Below are positions 1,396-42,700 of a stretch of 64,000 nucleotides of DNA, piece by piece (the first letter of the stretch is position 1; each line of letters begins with the position of its first letter). Location of the stretch: assembly GCA_000092065.1 (NCBI GenBank), contig CP000582.1; one strand, written 5' to 3'. A model generated the notes under the pieces. That model saw only the letters and a list, made by a program, of their open reading frames with translations, made no database searches and was not told the origin of the DNA. This DNA is from Ostreococcus lucimarinus. Lineage: Eukaryota. The position numbers and the translations under genes are program-made.

Positions 1396-3104
1396 CTAGG
1401 GTGACGACGCGGGGTCAGTGAAAGAGACGCACCACATCTCGGCGGTGCCGCCTCGGGTCGCGCGCGTCGCGCCGCGGCGGAGGACGTCAGCGGCGAGGAC
1501 GCTCGCGCACGCCTCGCGTAGACACTCCGCGCACCAAGGTTCGGGATGGGACACCGCGCTCGAGAGCGCGGCGTGGTTTGCGTCAAATTTTAACGCTGGG
1601 ACTCGATCGATGTCGCCGAGGGTGAGGAGAACGTCGTCTCGGCGTTCGCCGCGCGCCGCGTCGACGAAGACGGCGGCGCGCGGGCTCGGGACGCTCGCGA
1701 GCGGGACGAATCGGCCTCCGGCTTTGCGTATCTTCGCACCGGAGACGAAGTGGTCGAGAGGACACGTTCCTGGAAGGTAGTTCTCGTCGTTCGCGCCCGG
1801 ATATCGACACTTTGCGCTGAACACGTCGTCATGGCCGCTCCAAACTTTGTCGCACCGACACGGCAGTGGGGGAATCGCAAGCGTGCGGTTGAGGGATACG
1901 GCGTACGCGAACGCCTTCACGAGCGCGCGAACGTTCGCGCTCGCGACAATGAGGTGGTCCTCAATCGTCGGTTCCTCGCTCGTCAAGTTTTGAGGCGCGA
2001 GTTCAAACGTGAGGAACTTTTCGTCCTCGCCCGCGGCGTCGTGCAGCGCCCACAAGCCAACCTCTTGAAACCTATACCGCTTCGCCTCTCCACCACTACC
2101 GTCGAACGTGTACGTCGCGTGCACGGCGTACGGTTTAACGTCATCCCAGACGCCGTCTTTTCGATTCACCCACTGCATGAAGTATCCGTGACCGTTCACG
2201 AAGAGTCGAAGCGGCAACGCGCCAATCGCGAACGGCGAACCGGTCGACGGCAACGGCGAACCCGATTGCAGCACTCGCGTCTTCGCCGACGCTCCCGGGG
2301 CAACATCTAGTCCCGGCCACGCATTTTCCTCGCGCACCATCTTGTTAAACACTTGTTGGTGCGTCGTGAGCTTTGAGTACGCCCCGTCCTTTGCCTGTAA
2401 ATTTCGCGCCCAGTCGCTCAAGAAATCCTTCCCCGCGCGCGTGTTCCTGATGAACATCATCCCAGTGTTGAAGATCCCGCGCATCGCGTATCTCGCTCCT
2501 AATTCCCAATCCATCGTCGGGCTTAAATTATCGCTGCTAATCATCACGTCCGCCCCGCGAATCTCCTCGCACCCGTCCACGTCGCCGCTCTCGCACTTGA
2601 AGTACGGCGCCGCGTCTCGAAGCCACACGACGTCGACGTCGGATAAAATCACGTCAAACCCGGCGTCGAGCACCGCGCGCAATTCCTTCACCATCAACGC
2701 GCAAAACTTCTTCCAACTCTCGCTCGCGTGATCCGCGGCGTCGTTCAAATCGCCGTACTCGGCGCGATACGTCGCCACGCCCAGCGCGCGCGCCGCGTCA
2801 TGCGTCTCCGCGTCCAACGCCACGAGCACCGGCCGCACGCGCGCGCGCGACGCCTCCGCGCCGCTCCCATCCCCCCCCTCGCCCGCGCGCGCCCGCATCG
2901 CGTGCGTCGCCCAATTCTTCGCCACGTCGAGCACCTTCGCGTCGGCGAACGCGACGACGACGACGTCCTCCCCCTCCCGCGCGCCGACGTCGCGCAGCGT
3001 CGCCGCCGCGCCCGCGACCTCGACCGCCGGCGTCGTCCTCGCCGCGCGCGCGTCGCCGATCGCGCCCGCGTCGCCGATCGCGTCCGTCGCCGCGTCCGTC
3101 GTCC

Positions 3105-3137
<33 letters not shown>

Positions 3138-3255
3138 GCGCGCCTCCCGCGCGCGTCCGCGTCGCCGCGACCGCGCACGCCGCGACGACGACGCACGCGA
3201 GCGCCCTGCGCGCGCGCCGCGCGCGCGACGCGCCCTCGCGCGCGCCCGCGCGCAT
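1396..3255 (-). CDS. Glycosyltransferase family 77-like (nucleotide-diphospho-sugar transferase domain), Golgi-type type-II membrane protein
   Basis: ORF 1396..3432(-). Motifs DVDVVWLRDAAPYF, DVMISSDNLSP and FNTGMMFIRNTRAGKDF match the Nucleotid_trans/GT77 fold. The in-frame ATG at 3255 is followed by a short Arg-rich tail and the hydrophobic anchor ALACVVVAACAVAA. The ORF-track extension upstream of it is an Arg/Ala GC-frame artefact and would run into the POLD1 promoter. Confidence 0.6.
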
Positions 3256-3422: not shown

Positions 3423-6400
3423 ATGGATTCAAACGCGTCGCGGCTGTCGCGACACATCGCGACGACGATGCGACGCGCGGCGCGCGCGAACGACGACGAC
3501 GCGACGAAGCGACGAAAGAGTGATCCCGATGACGACGCGCTGCTGCGCGACGCCGAGGACGCGCGCGACGACGACGACGACGGCGCGACGACGGGAGGCG
3601 CGCGCGCGACGGGGGACGACGGCGCGGAGGAGTACGCCGACGACGTCGATTACGACGAGGAGGAGGTGTACGCGCGGACGACGAACGGCGAGGGCGAAGG
3701 ATTGATCGATGTGCGAGCGGCGGATCGCGCGAATTGGGTGCGACGACCGCTGGCGCGGGCGGTGGACGCGACGCGGGACGCGCTGCTGTTTCAACAGTTG
3801 GACATCGATTACGCGGTGGAGAAGCCGCACGAGGGACTGGGGGCGCGACGGGCGAAAGGTGACGCCGCGGTGGTGCGGATGTTCGGGGTGACGAAAGAGG
3901 GACACAGCGTGTGCGCGCACGTGCACGGGTTCGAGCCGTATTTTTACGCGTCGGTGCCGGAAAATTTCGGCGAGGCGGATTGCGCGGCGTTCAGGCGACG
4001 TTTGAACGAGGAGGTGAGCGCGGCGAGGAAGAACGCGCCGGGAGTGCACGTCGTGGACGTGTCGCTCGAGAGGAAGCAGAGTTTGATGCATTATAGCGAC
4101 GTGAAGGATCGCTTGTTCGCCAAGATCACGATGGGGCTGCCGAATATGGTGAGCGCGGCGCGAGGGATTTTGGAAAAGGGATTCAGCGTGCCGGGGGTTC
4201 GGGACGGGGCGTTCACGACGTACCCGACGTTTGAGTCCAACATCGTGTACGCCTTGCGGTTTATGGTGGACTGCGCCGTGGTCGGTGGGAACTGGATCGA
4301 GTTTCCGGTGAATTCGTACACGGTTCGTGCGAAGAAGGCGTCGCACTGTCAAATCGAAGTGGACATCATGTACGACAAGCTCATCTCGCACCCGGCGGAG
4401 GGTGAGTACTCCAAGCTCGCCCCGTTTCGCATCTTATCCGTGGATATCGAGTGTGCGGGGCGTAAAGGCCACTTTCCCGACGCACAATTGGATCCGGTGA
4501 TTCAGATCGCGACTCTAGTCACCGAGCAAGGGAGCGATAAACCGATTATTCGAGCCGTGTGGACGCTCGATACGTGCGCTCCGATCGTCGGCGCTGACGT
4601 CTTGAGTTTTAAGGATGAGCGGGAACTGCTTCGGAACTGGGGTAATTTTCTTCGCGGGTGCGACCCGGATTTGTTGATCGGCTATAACATCGTCAATTTC
4701 GATTTCCCGTACTTGTTGGAGCGCGCCGAGAAGCTCGGCGTCGCCGACTTTCCGTACTGGGGACGCTTGATCGGCACCAAGGTGCGCATGCGCGACACGG
4801 TTTTCTCGTCCAAGGCGTACGGTACGCACGAAAGTAAAGAAATATCTTGCGAGGGACGCGTGCAATTCGACATGCTTCGCGCTATTCAGCGCGATTACAA
4901 GTTGTCTTCATATTCGCTCAACGCAGTTTCTGCGCATTTTTTGGGCGAGCAAAAAGAAGACGTGCACTACAGCGCTATCTCGGAGCTGCAAAACGGTACG
5001 CCCGAGACGAGACGGCGTTTAGCGGTGTACTGTTTGAAGGATGCGTATCTTCCGCAGAGATTGCTGGACAAGTTGATGTACATGTACAACTACATCGAAA
5101 TGGCTCGCGTCACCGGCGTGCCGCTGAATTACCTGTTGACTCGCGGTCAGTCCATCAAGGTCATGTCGCAGCTTTTGCGCAAGGCGAGGCAGCGAAACAT
5201 GCTGATTCCTCACCATGTGAAGCAGGGCGGTGGCAACGTTCAAGCGGAGGGTGGTGTCGCGTACGAAGGTGCGACGGTCTTAGACGCCAAGGCTGGTTAC
5301 TACGAGATGCCCATCGCGACGCTCGATTTCGCTTCGCTGTATCCATCCATCATGATGGCTCACAATCTGTGCTACTCGACTTTAGTGCCAAAGGATAAGG
5401 TGGGTAAGCTCAACCCGGATGATTACGGGACATCGCCATCGGGAGATACGTTCGTGAAGGCATCCAAGGTGAAGGGGATTTTGCCAGAAATTTTAGAGGA
5501 ACTCTTGGGGGCGCGTAAACGCGCCAAGGCTGATCTTAAAAAAGCCACTGATCCGTTGCAAAAAGCGGTCTTAGACGGTCGCCAGCTCGCGCTGAAAGTC
5601 TCAGCAAACTCTGTGTACGGTTTCACCGGTGCCATGGTCGGACAGCTGCCTTGCCTCGAAATTTCTTCTTCAACGACGGCGTACGGCCGTACGATGATTG
5701 ATCACACGAAGAAAATGGTGGAAGAGAAGTATCGAACCGTGAATGGATACACTGGAAATGCCGAGGTCATTTATGGTGATACCGACTCCGTGATGATCAA
5801 GTTCAATACGCCGGATTTGGCGGAGTCTATGAAACTCGGTGAAGAAGCCGCGGTGTACGTCTCTGAGACGTTCTTGAAGCCTATCAAACTCGAATTCGAA
5901 AAGGTGTACTGGCCATATCTCTTGATTAGCAAGAAGCGCTACGCTGGTTTACTCTGGACGAACACTGAAAATTACGACAAGATGGACACCAAAGGTATCG
6001 AGACCGTGCGTCGCGATAACTGTTTGCTCGTGCGACAAGTCATCGAGACGGTTTTGGAGAAGATTTTGAAGCAGCGAGATGTGCAGGGCGCGGTGAAATA
6101 CGTGCAGAGTACGATCGCAGACTTGCTCATGAATAGATTAGATTTCTCACAGCTCGTGATCACGAAGGGTTTCACAAAAGAAGCAGACTCGTATGGGGTC
6201 AAGATGGCACACATAGAGCTCGCGCAGCGCATGCGCCAGCGCGATCCCGCCACCGCGCCGGTAGTCGGCGATCGTATCGCGTACGTCATCATTAAAGCGG
6301 CGAAGAACGCAAAGGCGTATGAAAAGTCAGAGGATCCGATTTTTGCTTTGGACAACAACTTACCCATCGATACGAAGCACTATTTGGATCACTACTTGAC

Positions 6401-26085: not shown

Positions 26086-27958
26086 ATGACGCGACGCGTC
26101 GACGCGAACGCGCGCGCCGTCGACGCGCGCGAGCGCGAGTGCGGTGAACTCAGGGTGCGTCGGAAGCGCGAACGCGACGCGAGATGGCGCGGACGCGACG
26201 CGAACGCGAACGATGAATGAATTCGAGTGACCGTTCGACCGTTCGACCGTTCGCGCGACCGTCGACGCGTCGACGGCGCGCGACGGCGACGCGGAGGCGC
26301 GCGCGACGGCGCGAAACGGTGATGCGAAACGCGTCGAACGCGCGCGAGCGAGCGCGAGGCGCGAGGACGGGCGCGGGAGACGCGAGGGGACGCGAGCGCG
26401 GACGGGGGACTGACGGCGAGGCGAGACGCGCGCGCGACAGGGATTTTCGCACTCGTTGCTCGGGAAATTGGACGCCGCGAGACAGGCTGGGAGGTTCGGT
26501 GAGGCGGAGATCGCGTTGTTGAAGGAAAAGCTCGCGATCGTGGTGAGCGCGTTTCAGAGCGAGCGGGAGAAGAGGGAGAAGGAATTGGAGGCGCTCGGGA
26601 GCGCGGCGCGCGTGGAGCTGAGCGAGCGAGAGTTCGCGTTGTCGAGCGCGAGATTGGAGCTCGCGGAGGCGAGACGGTTGATAAAGATTTTGGAAGCGAG
26701 AGAGGATAGTACGAGAGATGATCTCGACGAGGCTTTGACGGCGAATGAGATTTTGAAGGCGCAGTTGCTGGACGAACACGAGTGCGCTTCGACGCTTCGA
26801 CGCGAGTGCGCGCGGTTGCGCGAGGCGCTGCGAGATGCGGGCGAGGCGTTGGCGTACGCGGCGGAAAGAGAAGAAGAACTCACGAATAAGCCGGCGGGAA
26901 TGGATGACGTGGAGGTGAGACTCGAGCGTGAGGCGCAAAACGCAAAGATTGCGCGCTTGGAAGAAAAGCTCGTCGAGACGAGGGACGAAAACAAATTGCT
27001 CAGACGAGACTTGGTGGAGCGCGACGGAGAAAACTCAGAGTTACATCGCGCGGTTGCCGAGCGCGATGGTGCGCAGCGGTTCCTCAAAACGCAACTCGCG
27101 GACTGGAATCAGCGTTTGTACGCTCGCGCCGAAGGAAGCGACTCCCAACTCGCCGGTACGACGACGAGCGCGAGCGAAGGTTCGGCGACTGAACTGCGAA
27201 CGAGGTTGGATCAAGTCGAGATCGAACTCGGTGCGAAGACTGGCGCGGTTATCGCGTTGGAGCGTCGCGTGAAAGATCAAGACAAGGCACTCGAACGCGC
27301 GCGTGCGGAGATCGAAAAGATGCGCGAGAAGCTCTTCGCGCGCGAGACGACGGATGTCCGCGCCACGGCACCGAAGCAGCGATCCAAGTACGTCGAGGAC
27401 GCCGAGAATACCGCGGCGCAGGTTATGGAGACGCTTCGCGCGACGCGCGACAGACATGCAGAGAAGCGTAGTCGCGACGCTCGCGCGGCACGACGCGTCG
27501 GTGGCCCCAAGAGCGCGCAGAGCCGACCGGCGACGAAGAAACGCGAGCGAGCGCCGCCGTCATCCGTGGTCATTGACGCGAACGCCCCGTACCAACCGCC
27601 GCGAGCGAATGACGACGAGGACGAGGACGACGATGGCGATGATGACAGCGAGTACGAAGAAATTGACGTGCCGATCAAGCGCACGACGAAGAAGGGAATG
27701 TCGAAGAAGAAGTCAATCGCGCCCGCCGCCGCCAAGGAAAATGCCGCGACGGACGCCGCGCCGGCGAACGACGGTCCGCGCATGCCTCTCGGCATGCTTC
27801 AGATGCCCAAACTAGGCGCAAAGAAAGACAAGGGCGCGGTCGACGATGTCGCGCAGAAGAAGCGCCGATTGAATCGTCAATCGGCGATTCCCGAAGCGTT
27901 GCCGTCTTTAATGTTCGGCGTCGCCGACGGCGATTTTCAAGTCGCCCCGGCAAAGTGA
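26086..27958 (+). CDS. Coiled-coil protein with basic C-terminal tail (function unknown), two exons
   Basis: The ORF-track start at 26456 is TTG. Proposed exon 1 is 26086..26154: MTRRVDANARAVDARERECGELR. Proposed exon 2 is 26441..27958. About 350 aa of heptad-rich Glu/Leu/Arg/Lys sequence, then a Lys-rich tail ending PEALPSLMFGVADGDFQVAPAK. Confidence 0.5.
26155..26440 (+). other. Putative spliceosomal intron (286 nt) of coiled-coil gene
   Basis: Donor CTCAGG|GTGCGT. ACTGAC at 26409..26414, 27 nt upstream of acceptor CGCGACAG|GG. Phase 0. No in-frame stop in exon 1. Confidence 0.5.
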
Positions 27959-29341: not shown

Positions 29342-31963
29342 CTAGTTGAAATACCACAGCGTCGTTCCCTCGATGAGCCCGAGCGTGTCTACGTTTGATT
29401 CCAAGTCGCCGCTATCGCCAGAACCTTTGCGGCGCTTTGCCACGCACACGACGACGGGAAGCCCTCTCGGCGCCTTTGAGAAGTGCACGATAGGCACTGG
29501 CGCTTGGTCGGGTGCTTGCGAATTCGTGTACTGACGTCCCGTTTTTCTGGGATCAATGTCAATCATCGCTTCTACGCGTGCTCTCGCGGCGGGCGAAATT
29601 TCATTCATGAAATTTTTCGCGTCACGCCCTGCGCCCCACACGATGAATTTCTCCCACGACTTCATGGGAAGAATGCGTTCCTCGAACGCTTGCGCGCGAA
29701 CCTGCAACAGCCGACGGCGACTACACCGTGCTGATGCGCTCTGTGGACTCCAGCGATACAACAGCACCGGGTTATGCGGGTAGTCCCCGGCGCGTAAAAG
29801 CGATGGCAAGCCCTTTTTCAAGTTCTGCTCGTAATTTAACGCCAAGTGCCGTTGGAAGAAAATTAAATCTTCCGCCTCGCCCGAACCAGGCGGTGCCTCA
29901 ACAAAACCGCCTACGGTTTCTGCGACCGTTCGCGCCATGCACCACGTCGGCAAGAGTACCGTGCACTCTCGGAATTGTTCGAGGTGAAGCTCGTTTTGCG
30001 TCATCATGTTCGCCCAGGCTTCGTAATGCTCCGTTGAACCGCTTGGATACCGTTTCCAGCACCCTCCAACGATGGCCGTCCGATTTTCCGCGGCGAGTGG
30101 CACTTGTAGCTCGAGTCGCTGTGGCATCATGACGTCGTCAGAGTCCAGGAAGACTAAAATGTCTCCGTGACTCTGCTCGATGCAACGATTTCGACAGAAC
30201 CCGATACCAAAGTTGGGCGCGTCTTCCGCGACAAACTTCGAGCTCTCTGGCCACCTGCTTCCGTTCACCACAACGGCGATGCCCACTCGGGTAAACGCCT
30301 CGCGCCAGATTTTGATGATGTCTGGCGACCCATCCGTACTGCTGTCGTCGAAGATGCTCACCTCGATTGGACCTCGGTACGTTTGAGCGCATATAGAGCT
30401 CAAAGTCTCATCTAACCAACGAGATGCGTTATACACGGGAACAATGATACTGACGCTCGGCAAAGTAGTATCCACCGGAGGTCGAACGGGTTGCTCCTTG
30501 GGCGACGTCGACACTAGGAAATCGAGCACGCGCTTGAGCTTCGGCTTGGCGGATACGACTTCTTTGAGGATGGGAATCCCAACCTGCTCATACGATTCTT
30601 GCTTCACTCGAGCCATGCCATTCGCCAAAAGGCGTACTGACGAAGTCAAGTTACTCGTTCCACTATGAATCATCCACGGGTGTAACAACGCCACGGTCCC
30701 AGCCTTCCCGACAAGTTGCTCGATGACGCCATCGATGTCGTCTCGTCGAATCGCATTTTCAGCTTCGTGCGCATCTAGCTCGTACGAAAGCGGGAGACGT
30801 CCTTCGGTCGACAATTCGCTCACTAGATCAATAGCCCATGAGTTCAAATCTTGGTGAATGATGCCGCCCTTTGAGCGCAAATGCGACGCGATCCACTTGT
30901 GTGAACCCTTGATGAACGCCGTACCGCCGCCGCCCGGGACGCAGTCGGATAAAAATACCAAAATAATCACGCCTTGGTACGGATGTCCGTCCGGTGTGCG
31001 CTGCGCATCCGTGCTGAATCCCGCGCCAATGTCTAAGTGCCAGCCTCGGTTGAGCATACGCCTTCGATTGACCGGATGCCACGACCTGGCCGCCTCGAGC
31101 TCCTCCGCCTTTGGCTCTGGAGATCCCTCCCTGACTTGTCTGTCTACGATATTTGCCGACCTTTCGTCTAAAAGCATCATCGCCCGCCCTCGCACTTGTT
31201 TTTTCGTGCACGAAGGGCGTACTCTCTGCATCAACTGCGTGATGTACTGCCACTTCTCCCCGTGCTCCGTAACAGCCGCCAGAAGCGCGGCGTCGTGCTC
31301 GGGCGCCCATGCGCTTTCATAATGCTCCTCACACTGCTTCGCCGTCCACGTCAACTCACTCGTGCTCATCATCTTCGCGATGGCATCCCAATTGTGACCG
31401 CCCTCCTTCAACTTTCTCACGTTCCCGCTGTCGCACTCTGTCCATCTCGCAGGCGCCGGCGCGCACGCCCCGCTCTCGTCGCTCACTTTCCTTCGCTTCT
31501 CGCTCTGTTCCGCCCTCGCCGCCCTCGCTTTGGCTTCCTCCGCCACGAGCATCGCTTGTTCACTATCCTTTTCCGGAAACGTCACCGGGCAGTACCAATG
31601 CCGCACGTCGCACGCGCGTCGCCGTTCGTCCACCGCGTTCAGTTCTATGTCCCACGCCGCGCGCCCGAGCACTTCGTCCAGCGCTTTCGCGAGCTCGGGC
31701 GAGTTCCTCAGCGCGTCCCACGGCGCGCCGTCGCTCGGGGCGACGACTTCGATCACCCTTCGCGCGTTCCCGCGCGGCCACGTCGAGGGGTCGTCCAAAG
31801 CGAGCGGCGTCGACGCATTTCTTTCGCGACCGCTCTCGGCGGTGACGCACGGGTCGGCGAGTTCGCGACGCAACTGCGCGCGTATACCGTCGACGACGGA
31901 CGCGGAGACGGCGTCGGGGATGAGAACGATGCCGTCGGCGATGAATCGCTCGCGGAGCGACAT
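29342..31963 (-). CDS. Multidomain fusion: PhyH-type 2OG-Fe(II) dioxygenase (interrupted by two SANT/Myb-like repeats) + GT2 glycosyltransferase + C-terminal Rossmann-like region
   Basis: ATG at 31963 (MSLRERFIADGIVLIPDAVSASVVDGIRAQL = PhyH N-terminal strand). SANT/Myb-like repeats: RWTECDSGNVRKLKEGGHNWDAIAKMM...QCEEHY and WAPEHDAALLAAVTEHGEKWQYITQLMQRVRPSCTKKQVRGR. PhyH core: WHLDIG (HxD) ... LLHPWMIHSGTSNLTSSVR (distal His/Arg). GT2: VSIIVPVYNASRWLDETLSSICAQTY...FDDSSTDGS ... DxD motif VFLDSDDVMMPQRLE. Single uninterrupted 873 aa ORF. Confidence 0.65.
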   Translation of the reverse strand: MSLRERFIADGIVLIPDAVSASVVDGIRAQLRRELADPCVTAESGRERNASTPLALDDPSTWPRGNARRVIEVVAPSDGAPWDALRNSPELAKALDEVLGRAAWDIELNAVDERRRACDVRHWYCPVTFPEKDSEQAMLVAEEAKARAARAEQSEKRRKVSDESGACAPAPARWTECDSGNVRKLKEGGHNWDAIAKMMSTSELTWTAKQCEEHYESAWAPEHDAALLAAVTEHGEKWQYITQLMQRVRPSCTKKQVRGRAMMLLDERSANIVDRQVREGSPEPKAEELEAARSWHPVNRRRMLNRGWHLDIGAGFSTDAQRTPDGHPYQGVIILVFLSDCVPGGGGTAFIKGSHKWIASHLRSKGGIIHQDLNSWAIDLVSELSTEGRLPLSYELDAHEAENAIRRDDIDGVIEQLVGKAGTVALLHPWMIHSGTSNLTSSVRLLANGMARVKQESYEQVGIPILKEVVSAKPKLKRVLDFLVSTSPKEQPVRPPVDTTLPSVSIIVPVYNASRWLDETLSSICAQTYRGPIEVSIFDDSSTDGSPDIIKIWREAFTRVGIAVVVNGSRWPESSKFVAEDAPNFGIGFCRNRCIEQSHGDILVFLDSDDVMMPQRLELQVPLAAENRTAIVGGCWKRYPSGSTEHYEAWANMMTQNELHLEQFRECTVLLPTWCMARTVAETVGGFVEAPPGSGEAEDLIFFQRHLALNYEQNLKKGLPSLLRAGDYPHNPVLLYRWSPQSASARCSRRRLLQVRAQAFEERILPMKSWEKFIVWGAGRDAKNFMNEISPAARARVEAMIDIDPRKTGRQYTNSQAPDQAPVPIVHFSKAPRGLPVVVCVAKRRKGSGDSGDLESNVDTLGLIEGTTLWYFN

Positions 31964-32189
31964 GGCCGCGACGGGCGCGGCGCGCGCTGCGGGACGAAGT
32001 CGAAATTGAAATTGCCAAACCTTTGCTGCAACAAAAAGTGCACACGACCGGGACGGCGACCGGGACGGCGACCGGGACGGCGACGAGAACGAAGAATCGA
32101 CCGAGGCGCGCGATCGGACGTGTCGTGACGTCGTGAAGTCGTGATTGAACGACGATGAAAGAATGTGATGGTACAACGCGAAGTGGAGC

Positions 32190-36918: not shown

Positions 36919-37740
36919 CTACAAACGACGACCACGGCGACCACCCTTTCTACGAGTAGAATCCGTCGGCGTCGGCGTGACGTCTTCGATTCGGCCAATC
37001 TTCAACCCGGAGCGCGACAACGCGCGAAGCGCGCTTTGCCCGCCCGGACCCGGCGACTTCGTCTTATTACCCCCGGTCGCGCGCATCTTAATGTGCAGCG
37101 CCGTGATACCGAGCTCTTTGCATCGCGCGGCGACGTCTTGCGCCGCGAGCATCGCCGCATACGGCGAGGATTCATCGCGATCAGCCTTCACCTTCATCCC
37201 GCCGGTGCATCGGCTCAGGGTTTCCTTGCCCGACAAATCCGTCACGTGCTGCGTCGTCGAACGCGCGCGTCGGTCAGTCTCTCGCAATCGTCGTTCGGCG
37301 CGTCGCACGGCGCGCGCGAAAACGAAAACGAATGTCATCGCGCACGGCGTCGACGTCCTTCATCGCCGCGTCGCGCGCGCGTCGTCATCGCCATCGTGCG
37401 CGCGACGATCGCACTAGGGCTTTCATCGCGCCATCGCCATCGCCATCGTCATCGCGCGTCCCTCGCGCGCGTCGCGTCGCATCGCTCGTTCGAGCACGCA
37501 CCACGAAAGTATCGTTAAACGACGCGTAGATGTGCGCGACGCCGAAGACGAGCTCGCCCTCGCGCGCGTTGGGACCGACGTACGTAGCCTGCGCGCGGCG
37601 TCGATCGCGGTCGGGTCAGTCGGGCGTTCGCGTCGTCGTCGTCGCGCGCGCGCGCTCGGTCGCGCGCGCTCGGTCGCGCGCGCTCGACGCGATAGGCGCG
37701 CGCGTCGCGGCGTCGCGGCGTCGGTCGAGTCGCGCACCAT
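36919..37740 (-). CDS. RPS14: 40S ribosomal protein S14 (uS11), three exons, first coding exon = ATG only
   Basis: Exon 3 is 37248..36919: [109 protein letters not shown], near-identical to eukaryotic S14. Exon 2 is 37588..37502: [29 protein letters not shown]. Exon 1 is 37740..37738, ATG immediately followed by GTGCGCG. Confidence 0.85.
37249..37501 (-). other. RPS14 intron 2 (253 nt)
   Basis: Donor TTCGTG|GTGCGTGC. GAGACTGACCG about 25 nt upstream of acceptor CGACGCAG|CAC. Contains (GGCGAT)n hexamer repeats. Confidence 0.85.
37589..37737 (-). other. RPS14 intron 1 (149 nt), begins right after the start codon
   Basis: ATG|GTGCGCGAC donor. CCGACTGACCCG branch-like motif about 27 nt upstream of acceptor GCGCGCAG|GCT. 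Contains a tandem CGCGCGCTCGGT repeat. Confidence 0.65.
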
Positions 37741-37933
37741 GTCGCGGTGCGGCGCGTCGTCGAAAGACGGCGCGCGCGCGCCGCGCGCCCGCGGTCTCGC
37801 GGCGGGCGCGCGGATGGACGGTGTCGTCGATGTTGGCGTTTTCGGGCGTACTCTACGTGCGTTACTGAATACGCATACGGAGCGGTCGGTCGCCGCGGGG
37901 CCCGGCCGTTACACCGACGCGCGCGGCGTCGCG

Positions 37934-39712
37934 ATGACGGCGCGGCGCGAGCGCGCGCGCGCGCGGCGACGGCGCCGCGTCGCCCTCATCGCGTGCGCGT
38001 GCGCGCTCGCGGTGATCTGCGCGCGCGCGGTGACGCCGCGACGCGCGCGCGAGCGGCGCGCGGACGCGCGAACGCCGCGAGAACTCACGCTCGCGTCGCA
38101 CGGTGCGTTTCTGGCGCTGGACGTCGAGTCGAAGGCGGCGCGCGTGATACATCGCGGCCGGGGGGTGTATTACGGCACGTTCGAGGACGGATCGTCGTCG
38201 TCGGACGCGGTGTGGGTGGCGTCGAGGCCGGATAACGCGAAGACGCGGACGCGGACGGCGACGCGCGGGGACGCGTTGCTCAGAATAGACGCGAAGCGGG
38301 GGGAGATTTTAGAGGAAAGGGCGATCGATGCGGCGTTCACGCACGACGTCGTGCGACGAGGTGACTCGGTGTTCGTCGCCGACACTGGGAACGGGCGGAT
38401 TTTGGAGTTGGAGTATCCGTCGATGAGGACGCTTCGGGCGGTGGAGTTGTCGGTGAAGGCGCACGTGAATACGCTCGCGCCGGCGGACGCGAGCGAGTAC
38501 GGCGAGCACGCGGTGTGGGCGGTGCTTCATAATTTAGGTCCGAGCGAGGTGGCGTTGATCGACTTGGAAACTGGGCGCGAGTTGCGACCGAGGTTGACCA
38601 GAGTGGGCACGAAGTCGCACGGGTTGGTCATATACGAAGATCGATTCATCATGCTGAACAGTGGAGAGGGGCAATTGATTTCCGTGGACCCGTCGGGTGT
38701 CGAAGATTACGAGATTTTATGGACCGATGATTCGCGGACGTTCATGAAAGGGTTGTGCGTGATCGATGACGTGGCGTTTTTCGGCGTTTCGGCGTTCGGA
38801 AGAAGAGAAGACCGAGGCGATCCAAACAAGTCGAGCGACGTGGTGGCTTTCGATCTCGTTCGTAAGCGCGAGCTCTGGCGACAGACCGTGATGACGCACG
38901 GATTGCTCAACGTCATCGCCGCGCCGCAAATAGAGTCGAGCACTTGGTCGCACGCACATTGGAATGCAAACTCGCCGTCGTTGTACGCCGAATGGATTCC
39001 TCTGGCGGCGAAGCAAACGAACAATTGTGAAGCGACCGATCGGAATTCCTTGCTGTTGACGTACGACGACGTCGATGTACATCTGCTTCGTGATTACATT
39101 CAAGGCCTCCCTCGCGACGTGTTCAAAGAGTCTGGCAAAAACGGAAACGCTTTGTTGGGTGGGAGAGACGGCAACATGCAAAAGTTCAAGCCAAACGTCG
39201 ATGGCATGCTCTTGTTTTTCTCAGATCGAGGTGGCGAACACGTTTTTGAGTTTCCATTTTGGAAACGTCTCGAGCCGTACGTGCAACCTGTGCTGATTGA
39301 TTTGTTCACCGATCAACTCGGCGTCTCGGATCCGTTACGACACGTGATACGGCTACAGCTGGCGGTGATGAATCCTGGTTCTGAAATTTTGCCACACGTG
39401 GATACGGGCGACTGGGCGAGAAGACACCATCGATTTCACGTTCCAATCATAGTCCCGCAAAACGCTGGAGCGGTGGAATTCGTCATGATGCCAGAATCCG
39501 GTCAGGAAATCGCCGTTCCGCTCATCGAAGGTCGTCCATTTGAGATAAACAACGCGGTGACGCATCGAGTACGGAACAGCGCCTCGTCTTGGCGCATCCA
39601 CTTACTCGTCGACTTTAGCGAGCAACCGACGGCGAAGAGGCACGTGCTCAAGCCTGGGGACGTTTGTGACTACGCCAAAATGGGCAGCGGTCGGTGTGTG
39701 GCTGTCACTTAG
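37934..39712 (+). CDS. Membrane-anchored protein with NHL/beta-propeller-like region and C-terminal aspartyl/asparaginyl beta-hydroxylase-type 2OG-Fe(II) oxygenase domain
   Basis: Start placed at ATG 37934: [30 protein letters not shown], a signal anchor. Earlier in-frame ATGs fall inside the RPS14 5' region on the other strand. The middle region has VFVADTGNGRILELEY-type propeller blades. The C-terminus has the AspH-family core LPHVDTGDWARRHHRFHVPIIVP ... GRPFEINNAVTHRVRNSASSWRIHLLVDF. Confidence 0.6.
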   Translation: MTARRERARARRRRRVALIACACALAVICARAVTPRRARERRADARTPRELTLASHGAFLALDVESKAARVIHRGRGVYYGTFEDGSSSSDAVWVASRPDNAKTRTRTATRGDALLRIDAKRGEILEERAIDAAFTHDVVRRGDSVFVADTGNGRILELEYPSMRTLRAVELSVKAHVNTLAPADASEYGEHAVWAVLHNLGPSEVALIDLETGRELRPRLTRVGTKSHGLVIYEDRFIMLNSGEGQLISVDPSGVEDYEILWTDDSRTFMKGLCVIDDVAFFGVSAFGRREDRGDPNKSSDVVAFDLVRKRELWRQTVMTHGLLNVIAAPQIESSTWSHAHWNANSPSLYAEWIPLAAKQTNNCEATDRNSLLLTYDDVDVHLLRDYIQGLPRDVFKESGKNGNALLGGRDGNMQKFKPNVDGMLLFFSDRGGEHVFEFPFWKRLEPYVQPVLIDLFTDQLGVSDPLRHVIRLQLAVMNPGSEILPHVDTGDWARRHHRFHVPIIVPQNAGAVEFVMMPESGQEIAVPLIEGRPFEINNAVTHRVRNSASSWRIHLLVDFSEQPTAKRHVLKPGDVCDYAKMGSGRCVAVT

Positions 39713-39783: not shown

Positions 39784-42700
39784 TCACATGATTTTGATCG
39801 CTCGCTCAAATCCAGCCGGCTTCCCCTGACGGCTAGCCGGCCTTCGCGGACCTCTAACTTCGCGCTCGATCCCCAGCGTCGATTCGCAAAAGCCCTCTTT
39901 GGCGATGCGAACCAATTTACTCGATATAACCAACTCGTCGTCGTCCAAGATTTCATACCGCGGCGGGTGGCCGATGTAGAACTTCCATTTTGCGAAGTCC
40001 TCATCCGTCGCTTCGAGCCTCGTCTTGATCCGAGCCTTCACTTCCCCGAGCGTCTCACCTTCACACGTGCGAAGTAACATCGGTTCATCGTAGGCATAGA
40101 ACTGGTTAGGATTGGACAAGTCTTTGGAAATGTTGTACACACGCAAGAGTCTGTCTTCCTCTGACTCGTCATCGGGAACTTCCTCCGCACGAAGCGTCCA
40201 ATATTGGTCGTTGATATCTGCGATATCCTTTTCCTCCTCGAAAACTTTGTAGATTTGCGAGTAGAAAAGTTCAAGCAGACGTAATTTGCGACCGCCGACT
40301 CGAGTACCGAGCCTAGATCTGACCTCTTCGAGGACATCCTTCACCGCTGCGCTCTTCGACAGACGCAGTTGGAATTCTTCAACGAGCTTTGTGTTCAGTC
40401 CATGGAAGAAAACTTTTAGCGTCTTCAATTCCTGGAGTTCGGGCAGCGGCATGTCTAAGACTTCGTAATAGAGCACGTCGCTTTGCTGGTTTTCCAGCAT
40501 TTTTATCAAAGTATCCGCGCCTCTAAATTGGAAGCTTGCACTCTTTGGACCGTTCGTGTACACGTGATGCGCGGTGAAGCGCAATCGAAGAGGATCGTCC
40601 AAACCGATCGCCGAAGCCAAAACATCAGCGACTTGATCGTAACTCATCATTTTCGTCAACTCCAGAGTCACTTTGTCCACCTTAGGGGCCTCCAGCTCTC
40701 TGAAGTGAACGATTTGATGATTGTGTCTGAAGTCCGCATATTGAACCACGTTGGGGAACTTTAGTGAATCTTCCATGTCTTCAGTGATTTCTGGTTGAAT
40801 AAGCAAGATATCACCGTTACCGAGCTGCAACGTCTTGCTACCGTCATCGGGGTCGCTCAACGGATATGTTTTCACTTGTTTGTCCGATAATTGATCAATT
40901 TGAATCTTACTTTCGCGAACGAACGCAATTTCCTCAAACATGAGCGTTGACGCGGTACTGGCAAACCCTGCCATGGATTTGATCTTCGGCATGTAGGTAC
41001 TGAGCGTCTCCTCGGGACTCGCGTAAAGCGTGCCACAGTAACTCAACCGCGCCTCATGCGGATTGTAAAGCTTGACGTGCAACCAAATGTCTCTTTCTGG
41101 GTCACTGTTCGCGAACGCATCATCGTCAAGCTCTTCCAGGTAGAGTCTGAATTCGCCTGATGAAGCATGCTGTGAGTTAGGCACCGTGTATTTCAGCCGT
41201 GTTTTTTCAACCGTCCAGGTCGGTGGGGTATTTGCGTGGTCTGGAAGCGCGGTGGCTGGCCGAGATGTTTTGTTGCGTCGTGGCGAGTAAGTCCAGTACC
41301 GCTGCCTCTCAGCTGGTATTCCGAGCTTCTCGGAAACGAGCTCCCTAAACTTTGTAAATGTCGACTTTTTATGCAGTCGGAACCTTTGCGCGCTCTCAAA
41401 ATTGCCCAGATCAAAAAACTTCTCCGAAGCGATCTGCCGCTCTAAATCTTGCCTGGTCAAAACCTTGATGATGGTGTACAGATGCGCCTCCTTCTTTTCC
41501 TGCGCCTCTTTCTCCTTTGCCTTCTGCTCCTCAGCGAAGCGGGCCTGGAGGTATTCCGTGAGATGAGACTTATTGGCGACGCACATGATTTGATCCATGT
41601 CATCCTCTCGAATGTACACGAGCATGTAGGCGCTACTCACTTTTTGGAACCGCAAGTTCGGCGCCACGCGGACGTTTGTCGAGTCATCGTCTGCATCCAT
41701 ATCGCTATCGACCGCGGCTGCGCCGCCGCTTCCGTACTGTTCCACCACCGACTTTTCTGCGGTTTCTTTCGTCACGTGTTCGTCATCAAACTTGAACCAC
41801 TGCGCATCTTCCGCCTGCAAATTGGGCTTGACAAACGCGTAATAATGTCCACCATTTATCCCCCCGCTGTGTACTAAGACGCTATGAAGCTTATACTTGT
41901 TGCGAACACTCTTGTCGGACTCGGGAACGAGGTACTTACGATCACCCACGTCGAGATCGAGCTCTTCGGGGAACTCATATCTATCATGGATCTTCACCAT
42001 GGTGTCTCGTTGGTAATCGTACTCAAAACGCTTCAGCTGAATCTGCAACACGGGAGGAAAGTCGTGGAACAGCGTGCCTTTGCGAGCGTCTTGCAATCCG
42101 TGTCCCTCGGCGCGATACTTGTTCTCGCCATCAAGTTTTTCAATCTCAGTGTAACGATCAAAGGACGCATAAATATCTTTGCATCCCTTGACGTCTAACT
42201 GAAGATCGAGAAACTCCTCCTTGCGTTCGCTCTTGTAATCAACGTTGATGCACTCGATGAAGTTCGTCGTGTGCCCTTCGAAGAGCTTCTGAATCGTGCC
42301 CTCGACGCACGTTTGTTTCATGGCCTCTTCAAGCTTATCCTGAAGTACACGGTTGAGTTCCTGTACGTCGTGTTGCATGAAGGAATCGTAAGAGTCCCAT
42401 CCAAACGATCGCGTCAAATCCTCCGTGCTCACGTCGCCTTCTTTGGCGTACTGAAGACAGTAGAACACCGATTGTAACGCTAATGGCATCGATGTGTGCG
42501 CCTCTTCCGTTTCGTTCGTAGGCATGTGATAGACCGCGCGACGAAAGGAGGGAATGTGATAGAGCGTCTGCAAGAGCGAGTTCATGTAACACGTCGCCCC
42601 TTGATTCTTCAGACCGATCAGCCCTGTCTCTTTGCGCGAGTCGTATTCGCTATAAAACGCACTCTGCATCGGTCGGTCGACTTCGTGCTCCTCAATCGGC

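What the first reader, a model, noticed from the sequence alone, without database searches (positions are those of the whole stretch)
29342..31963. One 873 aa protein fuses a PhyH-type 2OG-Fe(II) dioxygenase, split by two SANT/Myb repeats, to a GT2 glycosyltransferase
Reading N to C on the minus strand:
- A PhyH-family N-terminal strand (RERFIADGIVLIPDAVSA...).
- An insertion carrying two SANT/Myb-like repeats (W...W...QC...Y / WAPEHDAALLAAVTEHGEKWQYI...).
- The PhyH catalytic core (WHLDIG HxD, distal HPWMIHSGTSN...R).
- A complete GT2 domain (VSIIVPVYNASRWLDETLSSICAQTY, DSDD).

A dioxygenase covalently tied to a glycosyltransferase is the logic of hydroxylate-then-glycosylate pathways. Known examples are Skp1 prolyl hydroxylation and glycosylation, collagen Lys hydroxylation and glycosylation, and base J with JBP plus JGT. 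A nucleic-acid or chromatin-type SANT/Myb module embedded inside the oxygenase fold is something I do not recognise from any described enzyme.

The target could be a protein, a small molecule, or even DNA or RNA; I cannot tell from sequence.

A second 2OG oxygenase (AspH-type, 37934..39712) and a GT77 (1396..3255) lie in the same 40 kb. I see no evidence they act together.
Basis: partly seen in the sequence, partly recalled or inferred. Interest (0 to 1): 0.75.

Follow-up and report, generated by a model that had tools for sequence, protein, structure and literature searches.

The report
Dioxygenase fused to queuosine-tRNA glycosyltransferase homolog
A green picoalga (Ostreococcus lucimarinus) encodes one 873-residue protein that joins an uncharacterised iron/2-oxoglutarate oxygenase, carrying a tethered Myb nucleic-acid-binding lobe, to a full-length homolog of the animal enzyme that puts galactose on queuosine in tRNA, which predicts an undescribed oxidised, sugar-bearing tRNA base in marine algae.

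Summary
Window 29342..31963 (-) is one uninterrupted 873-aa ORF with a PhyH-type 2OG/Fe(II) oxygenase split by two Myb repeats, followed by a GT2 domain (Pfam).

The last 378 residues are not a generic GT2. They match B3GNTL1/QTGAL, the vertebrate queuosine-tRNA galactosyltransferase, end to end (37% identity, E=1e-72), including its basic C-terminal domain.

The oxygenase belongs to a distinct, uncharacterised PhyH clade: 191 cluster representatives at E<=1e-10, with an invariant HxD...H...R site.

QTGAL-like GTs are the only GTs found fused to this oxygenase, and it is the only partner found on them. The fusion recurs in 65 fetched proteins, including Prasinoderma and an MMETSP transcript. 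The Myb insert is optional (0, 1 or 2 repeats).

AlphaFold2 predicts a confident full-length model (pLDDT 88.8, pTM 0.72) in which only the Myb tethers are disordered.

Best reading (about 0.45): a bifunctional tRNA anticodon-loop enzyme that glycosylates queuosine and also oxidises it or a neighbouring group, with the same logic as ALKBH8. The substrate is inferred, not shown. No paper describes the fusion. I rate it a new variant of a known kind.

The parts
29342..31963 (-). Complete CDS, 873 aa plus stop codon (29342..29344); a single exon
   Evidence: The ORF is continuous. The same gene is called on many metagenome contigs. The homolog alignment spans the full length.
31565..31963 (-). 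Oxygenase N-terminal segment (residues 1-133): first strands and helices of the PhyH-type fold. Conserved TWPxGxxRRVxE and RHWYxPxxFPE motifs.
   Evidence: invariant W62, P63, R68, R69, E72, R121, W123, Y124, P126, F129, P130, E131; HMM of standalone oxygenases matches 3-161; pLDDT mostly 87-98, with a dip over residues 41-50
31448..31564 (-). Tether 1 (residues 134-172): a long helix followed by a disordered stretch. Contains a KRRK basic patch, a possible NLS (inference).
   Evidence: pLDDT below 50 at 157-172; sequence
31313..31447 (-). Myb repeat 1 (residues 173-217), acidic to neutral; carries the KQCxExY recognition-helix motif
   Evidence: Pfam Myb, two stretches; invariant W, W, C; profile against c-Myb R1R2R3, E=1.5e-10; pI 5.5
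31160..31312 (-). Myb repeat 2 (residues 218-268), mildly basic
   Evidence: best stretch 218-263; W219, D224, L227, W238 and R249 near-invariant; pI 9.1
31088..31159 (-). Tether 2 (residues 269-292): acidic, partly disordered return to the oxygenase core
   Evidence: pLDDT below 50 at 269-279
30554..31087 (-). Oxygenase catalytic core (residues 293-470). WxPVNRRR motif, Fe(II) ligands H309-x-D311 (31031..31039) and H433 (30665..30667), 2OG-binding R444 (30632..30634).
   Evidence: all invariant; family profile search; PhyH-type double-stranded beta-helix fold
30464..30553 (-). Ordered connector between oxygenase and GT (residues 471-500)
   Evidence: block pLDDT 84-97; pTM 0.72 for the whole chain
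29864..30463 (-). GT-A / GT2 catalytic domain of B3GNTL1/QTGAL type (residues 501-700). DDSSTD motif and DSDD (30134..30145).
29345..29863 (-). QTGAL-family C-terminal domain (residues 701-873): basic (pI 10), with WGAGRD, DxDxxK, VVVCV and LxEG motifs. Candidate tRNA-binding or acceptor domain (inference).
   Evidence: aligned to the last residue of vertebrate QTGAL; basic in all family members, including the vertebrate ones; pLDDT mostly above 90

Best explanation
This gene encodes a nucleocytosolic, bifunctional tRNA-modifying enzyme.

The C-terminal 378 residues are an ortholog-grade member of the B3GNTL1/QTGAL family. I infer that they transfer a hexose from a UDP-sugar to the cyclopentenediol of queuosine (Q34) in a GUN-anticodon tRNA, as vertebrate QTGAL does on tRNA-Tyr.

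The N-terminal Fe(II)/2-oxoglutarate oxygenase is predicted as one body with the GT, joined by an ordered connector. I infer that it performs an oxidative step, most likely a hydroxylation, on the same hypermodified nucleoside, on its sugar, or on a neighbouring anticodon-loop position. The product would be an oxidised glycosyl-queuosine not yet described.

The two-repeat Myb lobe, tethered by two flexible linkers in a surface loop of the oxygenase, and the basic C-terminal domain of the GT would hold the nucleic acid.

Shown here:
- the three-module architecture;
- intact catalytic residues in both enzymes;
- QTGAL-family membership by end-to-end homology;
- recurrence of the fusion, with no other fusion partner on either side among the fetched proteins;
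- a confident full-length model (pTM 0.72).

Inferred, not shown:
- tRNA or queuosine as the substrate;
- the sugar that is transferred;
- the chemistry and target of the oxygenase;
- the order of the two steps. The ALKBH8 precedent suggests the transferase could act first.
For: Homology of the GT half:
- It matches newt 'queuosine-tRNA galactosyltransferase' over residues 9-378 against 35-376, at 37% identity and E=1e-72.
- Dozens of vertebrate QTGAL/B3GNTL1 entries hit at E=1e-42 to 1e-58, most of them with 98% coverage.
- 35 columns are invariant across vertebrates, Capsaspora, stramenopiles, a haptophyte and algae. These include family-specific motifs outside the generic GT2 core.
- The pattern of an acidic catalytic half and a basic C-terminal half is shared by the whole family.

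Function of the QTGAL family:
- QTGAL is the enzyme that makes galQ on tRNA-Tyr (PMC11755703, PMC12518689, bioRxiv 10.64898/2026.06.28.735034).
- Mosquitoes lack a QTGAL ortholog and lack galQ; flies are likewise reported to lack both (PMC11705514, PMC12313893).

Queuosine machinery in the host:
- Ostreococcus is reported to encode a TGT (PMC2376095).

The oxygenase:
- H309, D311, H433 and R444 are invariant in 16 aligned sequences and conserved in standalone relatives.
- The fold is PhyH-type.

The fusion:
- Among 378 fetched proteins, 65 carry both modules.
- No other GT type is fused to this oxygenase, and no other domain was found N-terminal of the GT in the fetched QTGAL-like proteins.
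- It is present in the Prasinoderma coloniale gene model PRCOL_00002484-RA and on MMETSP transcript ORFs P0042 and P0378.
- The full-length AF2 model has pLDDT 88.8 and pTM 0.72, with an ordered connector.

The Myb lobe:
- Its profile best matches nucleic-acid-binding Myb repeats: c-Myb at 1.5e-10, SNAPC4 at 3e-10, and spliceosomal CEF1/CDC5.

Precedent:
- ALKBH8 combines an RRM, a dioxygenase and a transferase on tRNA position 34. It is fused in mammals and split into two genes in plants (PMC3177185).
Against: - No biochemical data exist for any non-metazoan QTGAL homolog. At 37% identity, acceptor specificity could have drifted.
- Queuosine already has the hydroxyls used for glycosylation, so the oxygenase has no obvious necessary role.
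- All the closest structural relatives of the oxygenase act on small molecules or free amino acids: GriE, a proline hydroxylase, KanJ, SnoK, EctD and PHYH. None of the top hits is an AlkB- or TET/JBP-type nucleic-acid oxygenase.
galQ synthesis as described in vertebrates does not involve one.
- Myb repeat 1 is acidic and the pair is only mildly basic. The inter-repeat linker is about 9 residues shorter than in c-Myb.
- The Myb lobe is absent in some fusions.
- Other members of the oxygenase family are fused to Ank, LRR or Pirin modules. These suit protein substrates or partners at least as well as nucleic acids.
- I had no coordinates for the model, so I could not measure the geometry between the two active sites.
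Confidence: 0.45

Rival explanations
1. A nucleocytoplasmic protein-modification enzyme. The oxygenase hydroxylates a side chain (for example proline, lysine, Asp or Asn) of a nuclear or chromatin protein, and the GT glycosylates the new hydroxyl, as in Skp1 (P4H1 plus Gnt1) or collagen (LH3). The Myb/SANT lobe would dock on a histone or chromatin partner.
For: - The oxygenase fold is closest to amino-acid hydroxylases, including a proline 3/4-hydroxylase and the leucine hydroxylase GriE.
- The secondary alcohol on the five-membered ring of hydroxyproline chemically resembles the queuosine cyclopentenediol acceptor (inference).
- Some family members are fused to Ank or LRR protein-interaction repeats.
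- Myb repeat 1 is acidic, as in SANT domains.
Against: - The GT is an end-to-end QTGAL homolog. That family's only demonstrated acceptor is tRNA queuosine (PMC12518689).
- The Myb profile matches DNA/RNP-type Myb repeats far better than SANT (1.5e-10 against 4e-4).
- The oxygenase is not of the P4H, JmjC or LH type that hydroxylates proteins in the known systems.
- No candidate substrate is known.
Confidence: 0.2
2. A small-molecule tailoring enzyme. It would hydroxylate and glycosylate a metabolite such as free queuine or queuosine, an osmolyte, or a mycosporine-like compound. The Myb lobe would serve regulation or localisation.
For: - Every characterised structural neighbour of the oxygenase acts on a small molecule: KanJ, SnoK, EctD, MysH, EasH, AusE, PHYH.
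- Myb-less fusions exist.
Against: - The basic C-terminal domain is conserved with a tRNA-modifying enzyme.
- A Myb-type lobe has been retained in the same loop across deep lineages.
- There is no biosynthetic gene neighbourhood.
Confidence: 0.12
3. A DNA base-hypermodification enzyme of base-J type. The oxygenase would hydroxylate a base in DNA, the GT would glycosylate it, and the Myb repeats would target specific DNA sequences.
For: - The Myb lobe is closest to sequence-specific DNA-binding Myb domains (c-Myb, SNAPC4, Reb1).
- JBP1 shows that a DNA-binding module can be inserted into a base-hydroxylase scaffold (bioRxiv 10.1101/502252).
- There is a possible NLS in tether 1 (inference).
Against: - The oxygenase is PhyH-type, not TET/JBP.
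- The GT is QTGAL-type, not a JGT or phage-type glucosyltransferase.
- The Myb lobe is dispensable in some fusions.
- I know of no report of glycosylated bases in prasinophyte DNA (own knowledge; I did not search for this).
Confidence: 0.08
4. The oxygenase domain does not act on the GT's substrate. It would be an O2, 2OG or Fe sensor, or a scaffold that regulates a conventional Q-tRNA glycosyltransferase.
For: - galQ formation as described in vertebrates involves QTGAL alone.
- The ordered connector and the high pTM are compatible with allosteric coupling.
Against: - The full catalytic set (HxD, H, R) and many surface motifs rich in Arg, Trp and Pro are invariant over deep divergence. This is more than a scaffold would need.
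- About 45 standalone representatives of the family exist.
Confidence: 0.1
5. A gene-model artefact: two adjacent genes, or an intron-split gene, read through as one ORF.
For: - The exact 873-aa protein has no NCBI accession, although a neighbouring gene does. The reference annotation may therefore model the gene differently.
- No RNA-seq data for this species could be examined.
Against: - The frame is open for 944 codons with no stop.
- The connector is conserved and confidently folded.
- 65 fetched homologs (many of them close variants within a few clusters) have the same order of modules.
- An independent eukaryotic gene model in Prasinoderma has the fusion, and MMETSP transcript ORFs carry the end of the oxygenase plus the whole GT.
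Confidence: 0.02

Closest known systems
QTGAL / B3GNTL1 (vertebrate queuosine-tRNA galactosyltransferase)
   Same: - Residues 496-873 align end to end at 37% identity, E=1e-72.
- Same GT-A/GT2 catalytic domain with DxD motifs.
- Same family-specific C-terminal domain (WGAGRD, DxDxxK, xCV, LxEG) and the same acidic/basic charge split.
   Different: - Vertebrate QTGAL is a standalone protein of about 330-410 aa. Here it is the C-terminal half of an 873-aa protein, joined to an oxygenase and a Myb lobe.
- The donor sugar and the acceptor are untested in any alga.
- Q glycosylation has so far been described as a feature of animals, mainly vertebrates (bioRxiv 10.64898/2026.06.28.735034).
ALKBH8 (RRM + AlkB-type 2OG dioxygenase + Trm9-type methyltransferase)
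   Same: - One polypeptide combines an RNA-binding module, a 2OG/Fe oxygenase and a group transferase that act in sequence on tRNA position 34.
- It is fused in some lineages and split into separate genes in others (PMC3177185). That parallels the fused and standalone forms seen here.
   Different: - The oxygenase fold class differs (AlkB against PhyH).
- The transferase differs (SAM methyltransferase against GT-A glycosyltransferase).
- The RNA-binding module differs and sits elsewhere (N-terminal RRM against a Myb pair inserted in a loop).
- There is no sequence homology; the resemblance is one of logic only.
JBP1/JBP2 with JGT (base J synthesis in kinetoplastids)
   Same: - A nucleic-acid base is oxidised by a 2OG oxygenase and then glycosylated.
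- In JBP1 the DNA-binding JDBD is inserted in the middle of the hydroxylase folding unit and is flexibly attached (bioRxiv 10.1101/502252). This parallels the tethered Myb lobe.
   Different: - JBP is TET/JBP-type, not PhyH-type.
- JGT is a separate protein that is not related to QTGAL.
- The substrate is DNA thymine.
LH3/PLOD3 and mimivirus L230 (collagen lysyl hydroxylase fused to a glycosyltransferase)
   Different: - The domain order is opposite (GT N-terminal, oxygenase C-terminal).
- The oxygenase is LH-type.
- The substrate is a protein in the secretory pathway.
- There is no nucleic-acid-binding module.
PhyH-superfamily small-molecule hydroxylases (GriE, KanJ, SnoK, EctD, PHYH, EasH, AusE)
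   Same: - Same HxD...H triad with a C-terminal Arg for 2OG.
   Different: - Only 10-20% identity; the best profile E-value against PDB sequences is 5e-7.
- The family has its own invariant motifs (TWPxG..RRVxE, RHWYxPxxFPE, WxPVxRRR..GWHxD).
- It has a loop that accepts a Myb insertion.
- No member has been characterised.

Membership tests
B3GNTL1 / QTGAL family | Full-length collinear sequence homology to experimentally defined vertebrate QTGAL | tested here: met
   37% identity, E=1e-72, residues 9-378 against 35-376; dozens of vertebrate QTGAL/B3GNTL1 entries, most at 98% coverage
B3GNTL1 / QTGAL family | GT-A (GT2) fold with a DxD metal/nucleotide-sugar motif | tested here: met
   [not shown]
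B3GNTL1 / QTGAL family | Family-specific basic C-terminal domain (WGAGRD ... xCV ... LxEG) | tested here: met
   pLDDT above 90
B3GNTL1 / QTGAL family | Transfers galactose from UDP-Gal to the homoallylic OH of Q34 in tRNA-Tyr | not testable with these tools
   This needs biochemistry or tRNA mass spectrometry. The only indirect support is that a TGT is reported in Ostreococcus (PMC2376095) and that the Q salvage genes have green algal orthologs (PMC12301720).
B3GNTL1 / QTGAL family | Standalone single-enzyme architecture (about 330-410 aa) | tested here: not met
   Here it is the C-terminal half of an 873-aa fusion. This is an architectural variant.
PhyH superfamily of Fe(II)/2OG oxygenases (PF05721) | Pfam match above the gathering threshold | tested here: met
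   (38.5 bits against 22); 55 of 64 family members match
PhyH superfamily of Fe(II)/2OG oxygenases (PF05721) | Double-stranded beta-helix fold closest to PhyH-type enzymes | tested here: met
   [not shown]
PhyH superfamily of Fe(II)/2OG oxygenases (PF05721) | HxD...H iron triad plus a 2OG-binding Arg | tested here: met
   H309, D311, H433 and R444 invariant; alignment to SnoK places H433 and R444 on its catalytic motif
PhyH superfamily of Fe(II)/2OG oxygenases (PF05721) | 2OG-dependent oxidation activity | not testable with these tools
   Requires an enzyme assay.
Myb/SANT helix-turn-helix repeats | Pfam Myb_DNA-binding above threshold, in tandem | tested here: met
   31.9 bits against 24.4, two stretches; profile against c-Myb R1R2R3 at 1.5e-10 and SNAPC4 at 3e-10
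Myb/SANT helix-turn-helix repeats | Three regularly spaced aromatic residues per repeat, and basic recognition helices typical of DNA-binding Myb | tested here: inconclusive
   - The first two Trp of each repeat are invariant; the third position is Y/F/H in repeat 1 and not aromatic in repeat 2 (read directly from the alignment).
- Repeat 1 is acidic and repeat 2 mildly basic.
- The inter-repeat linker is about 9 aa shorter than in c-Myb.
TET/JBP or AlkB nucleic-acid dioxygenases | TET/JBP-type or AlkB-type oxygenase fold or sequence | tested here: not met
   [not shown]
Skp1 / collagen hydroxylation-glycosylation enzymes (P4H1+Gnt1, LH3) | P4H- or LH-type oxygenase and a GT60 or LH3-type GT | tested here: not met
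   The oxygenase is PhyH-type and the GT is QTGAL-type.

The most novel reading that the evidence does not exclude
Marine picoeukaryotes make a previously unknown hypermodified tRNA nucleoside, an oxidised (for example hydroxylated) glycosyl-queuosine, using a single enzyme that is both oxygenase and glycosyltransferase.

The oxygenase half would then be the founding member of a previously unrecognised family of PhyH-type RNA-modifying dioxygenases. The family has about 190 sequence clusters, most of them standalone. It would work with QTGAL-like transferases across several algal and protist lineages.

A bolder corollary: the Myb lobe binds DNA at tRNA genes. Modification would then be coupled to Pol III transcription or to pre-tRNA processing, which would fit the finding that QTGAL can act on pre-tRNA-Tyr (PMC12313893).
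Probability: 0.3. Interest if true: 0.9.

Novelty: new variant of a known kind. Interest (0 to 1): 0.74.

Why it matters
Queuosine glycosylation was assigned to enzymes only in 2023 and is treated as an animal, mainly vertebrate, feature. Its purpose is still debated.

An ortholog-grade QTGAL in green picoalgae and other protists would push the origin of the modification deep into eukaryote evolution. Its fusion to an intact 2OG oxygenase predicts additional, oxygen-dependent and 2OG-dependent chemistry on the anticodon. That would link translation to O2, iron and central carbon status in organisms that dominate coastal phytoplankton.

It also gives a first functional lead for an uncharacterised PhyH clade of about 190 sequence clusters.

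Ostreococcus can be cultured and genetically manipulated (own knowledge), and its genome is compact. The prediction can be tested directly by tRNA mass spectrometry.

Tried and rejected
- **Generic GT2 annotation.** NCBIfam gave only sub-threshold hits to bacterial EPS and teichoic-acid GTs. PDB sequence search gave only generic GT2 hits. I rejected these as the identity of the domain once the half-protein search recovered QTGAL end to end.
- **Functional gene cluster.** The neighbours are DNA polymerase delta, an AAA ATPase, COG3, an LHC protein, a papain-type protease, USP7, a glucanotransferase, a TPR protein and an SBF-like transporter. The GT77 and the AspH-like ORF are unrelated bystanders. 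There are no tRNA genes in the window.
- **Conserved neighbourhood of standalone oxygenases.** Two look-ups found no GT next to them.
- **Viral origin.** No relative of the oxygenase core was found in IMG/VR.
- **Named relatives of the oxygenase.** The last homolog search returned only unnamed metagenome, MMETSP and EukProt proteins. Cluster look-ups gave one species name, Prasinoderma. NCBIfam found nothing.
- **afdb50 fold search.** The library was unavailable.
- **Direct evidence for QTRT1/QTRT2 in O. lucimarinus.** I could not get this. PMC4136680 is not held.
- **Literature.** Searches for any description of a PhyH-Myb-GT fusion found nothing.

Full report
**1. The observation**

The minus-strand ORF 29342..32176 is open for 944 codons. 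Its first ATG, at 31963, gives an 873-aa protein, and homolog N-termini align to this start. The upstream region holds no other in-frame ATG.

Pfam finds all three domain types:
- Glycos_transf_2 at residues 505-677, E=6e-24.
- PhyH at 38.5 bits (cut-off 22), with profile positions 11-211 stretched over residues 197-444.
- Two Myb_DNA-binding stretches at 31.9 bits (cut-off 24.4).

An HMM built from standalone relatives matches residues 3-161 and 284-468. The oxygenase is therefore genuinely interrupted by an insert of about 120 residues.

**2. The organism and the gene model**

The adjacent TPR gene is identical to XP_001416119.1 of Ostreococcus lucimarinus CCE9901. The identical 873-aa protein occurs in 127 blocks of marine metagenome assemblies, with the same neighbours. 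It carries no NCBI accession, so the reference annotation may model the gene differently.

Several results support a single polypeptide:
- The frame is uninterrupted.
- Conservation runs through the connector.
- The connector is confidently folded.
- An independent eukaryotic gene model with the same fusion exists in Prasinoderma coloniale (PRCOL_00002484-RA, 974 aa).
- MMETSP transcript ORFs (P0042, P0378) carry the C-terminal end of the oxygenase followed by the entire GT.

I could not examine RNA evidence for this species.

**3. What the GT really is**

I searched the last 378 residues alone. The search returned:
- algal and protist homologs at 45-58% identity;
- dozens of vertebrate proteins named 'queuosine-tRNA galactosyltransferase' or B3GNTL1, at 31-38% identity, most with 98% coverage, E=1e-42 to 1e-58.

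A pairwise BLASTP against newt QTGAL gives 37% identity and E=1e-72, from the first beta-strand to the last residue. A ten-sequence alignment spanning vertebrates, Capsaspora, Triparma, a haptophyte and algae has 35 invariant columns. These include motifs outside the generic GT2 core: GST.HY..W.N, PTW, EDL.F, WGAGRD, D.D..K, CV and EG. The acidic catalytic half and the basic C-terminal half are shared by the whole family.

QTGAL is the enzyme that beta-galactosylates the homoallylic hydroxyl of Q34 in tRNA-Tyr (PMC11755703; PMC12518689; bioRxiv 10.64898/2026.06.28.735034). Mosquitoes lack the gene and lack galQ, and flies are likewise reported to lack both (PMC11705514; PMC12313893).

Ostreococcus is reported to encode a Chlamydiae-type queuine tRNA-ribosyltransferase (PMC2376095). 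[quoted passage not shown] An acceptor for a QTGAL-type enzyme is therefore plausibly present.

**4. What the oxygenase is**

An AlphaFold2 model of residues 1-480 has pLDDT 80 and pTM 0.68. Its best matches are all PhyH-superfamily enzymes:
- Foldseek E=5e-5 to 1e-3: GriE, a proline 3/4-hydroxylase, KanJ, MysH, EasH, SnoK, EctD and human PHYH.
- No AlkB, TET/JBP or JmjC enzyme appears among the top hits.

H309-x-D311, H433 and R444 are invariant.

An exhaustive profile search with the contiguous catalytic core found 768 cluster representatives at E<=1e-3, 191 at E<=1e-10 and 79 at E<=1e-30. Of 64 longer members:
- 55 hit PhyH;
- 12 have Myb;
- 9 have GT2;
- 2 have Ank repeats, 1 has LRR and 1 has Pirin;
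- about 40 are standalone proteins of 340-430 aa.

The standalone proteins are genuine separate genes on eukaryotic contigs. They share the family's own motifs: TWPxG..RRVxE, RHWYxPxxFPE and WxPVxRRR..GWHxD. No member is named or characterised. The best profile hit to any PDB sequence is SnoK at 5e-7.

**5. The fusion is the conserved feature; the Myb lobe is an accessory**

Domain HMMs run over all 378 fetched proteins found 65 that carry both the oxygenase and the QTGAL-type GT. Many of these are close variants within a few clusters. No other GT type is fused to this oxygenase. No other domain was found N-terminal of the GT in the fetched QTGAL-like proteins.

Architectures vary:
- no insert: P0223 and P0344;
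- one Myb repeat in the same loop: P0343, P0222 and P0200;
- two repeats: this protein, and P0206, the cluster that holds the Prasinoderma model;
- an extra N-terminal Ank array: P0198.

I built neighbour-joining trees without bootstrap support, so they are only indicative. They place the fused GT halves in one clade. That clade is separate from a large clade of standalone GTs, several of which carry diatom names, and lies next to the vertebrate clade. The standalone oxygenases also form one clade apart from the fused ones. This matches the ALKBH8 pattern, fused in mammals and split into AtALKBH8 plus AtTRM9 in plants (PMC3177185).

**6. The Myb lobe**

A profile of the insert best matches nucleic-acid-binding Myb repeats, well ahead of the NCoR2 SANT domain at 4e-4:
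- c-Myb R1R2R3 at 1.5e-10;
- SNAPC4 at 3e-10;
- Trichomonas Myb proteins, B-Myb and Reb1;
- spliceosomal CEF1/CDC5.

The lobe departs from the DNA-binding type in three ways:
- Repeat 1 is acidic and repeat 2 only mildly basic.
- The inter-repeat linker is about 9 residues shorter than in c-Myb.
- The third aromatic position of repeat 2 is lost (read directly from the alignment).

In both models the lobe is well folded (pLDDT 83-94). It hangs on two low-confidence tethers, at 157-172 and 269-279.

**7. The whole-protein model**

I built a 53-sequence alignment from fusions, standalone oxygenases and standalone GTs. The resulting full-length model has pLDDT 88.8 and pTM 0.72. The 471-500 connector has pLDDT 84-97. 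This suggests that the two catalytic domains pack as one body, but I had no coordinates. The distance between the active sites is therefore unknown.

**8. Interpretation**

The strongest single fact is ortholog-grade membership of the GT half in a family whose only known job is to glycosylate queuosine in tRNA. The next strongest is that the fusion recurs with no other partner on either side, which is 'Rosetta-stone' evidence that the two enzymes act in one pathway.

I therefore favour a bifunctional anticodon-loop tRNA enzyme that makes an oxidised glycosyl-queuosine. My confidence is about 0.45.

The weak points:
- Queuosine needs no extra hydroxyl.
- All structural neighbours of the oxygenase act on small molecules or free amino acids.
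- The oxygenase has no detectable vertebrate ortholog.
- Nothing is known biochemically about non-animal QTGAL homologs.

The rivals are:
- a nucleocytoplasmic protein hydroxylation-glycosylation system (0.2);
- a metabolite-tailoring enzyme (0.12);
- a sensor or scaffold role for the oxygenase (0.1);
- a base-J-like DNA system (0.08);
- a gene-model artefact (0.02).

**9. Novelty**

No paper in the searchable library mentions this fusion. The parts belong to known superfamilies. The GT belongs to a known, recently characterised family. The combination, the new PhyH clade and the implied chemistry are undescribed. I classify it as a new variant of a known kind. There is a realistic chance, about 0.3, that it marks a new tRNA nucleoside and a new family of RNA-modifying oxygenases.

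Noticed in passing
window 32047..32085 (read on the - strand), in the 226-bp region upstream of the ATG at 31963: A 12-bp unit (tcgccgtcccgg) is repeated three times in tandem in the promoter or 5' leader of the gene. In the open upstream frame it would read SPSRSPSRSPSR, but no ATG precedes it.
   Followed up: no
window 29342..31963 compared with the public annotation: The exact 873-aa protein is found in 127 blocks of metagenome assemblies but has no NCBI accession. The neighbouring TPR gene is XP_001416119.1. The O. lucimarinus reference annotation may model this gene differently, or miss it.
   Followed up: partly
It lies next to the DNA polymerase delta gene and shows no link to the fusion gene.
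   Followed up: partly
window 37532..39712 (+): The 'AspH-type' oxygenase is only a weak, partial Asp_Arg_Hydrox match (E=8e-7, the last ~95 residues of a 726-aa ORF). The remaining ~600 residues have no Pfam domain.
   Followed up: partly
window 4001..6000 and 40001..42000: GC content drops to 0.54 and 0.50, against 0.58-0.70 elsewhere. The dips fall inside the DNA polymerase delta gene and the USP7-like gene.
   Followed up: no
window 26456..27958 (+): A 500-aa ORF that is called as a gene on several metagenome contigs but has no Pfam domain.
   Followed up: no
P0198 (1444 aa, Logan assembly), a homolog from elsewhere: A relative with an ~850-residue N-terminal extension that holds an ankyrin-repeat array, ahead of the oxygenase (with one Myb repeat) and the QTGAL-type GT. 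Other oxygenase family members carry LRR or Pirin domains.
   Followed up: partly
standalone oxygenase clade (e.g. P0189, P0203, P0337; loci L001-L003): About 45 standalone representatives of the same oxygenase family form their own clade. There is a parallel large clade of standalone QTGAL-like GTs, several of which carry diatom names. The two might be the split-gene version of the same two-enzyme system, but I could not get species labels to test co-occurrence.
   Followed up: partly
[not shown]
   Followed up: yes
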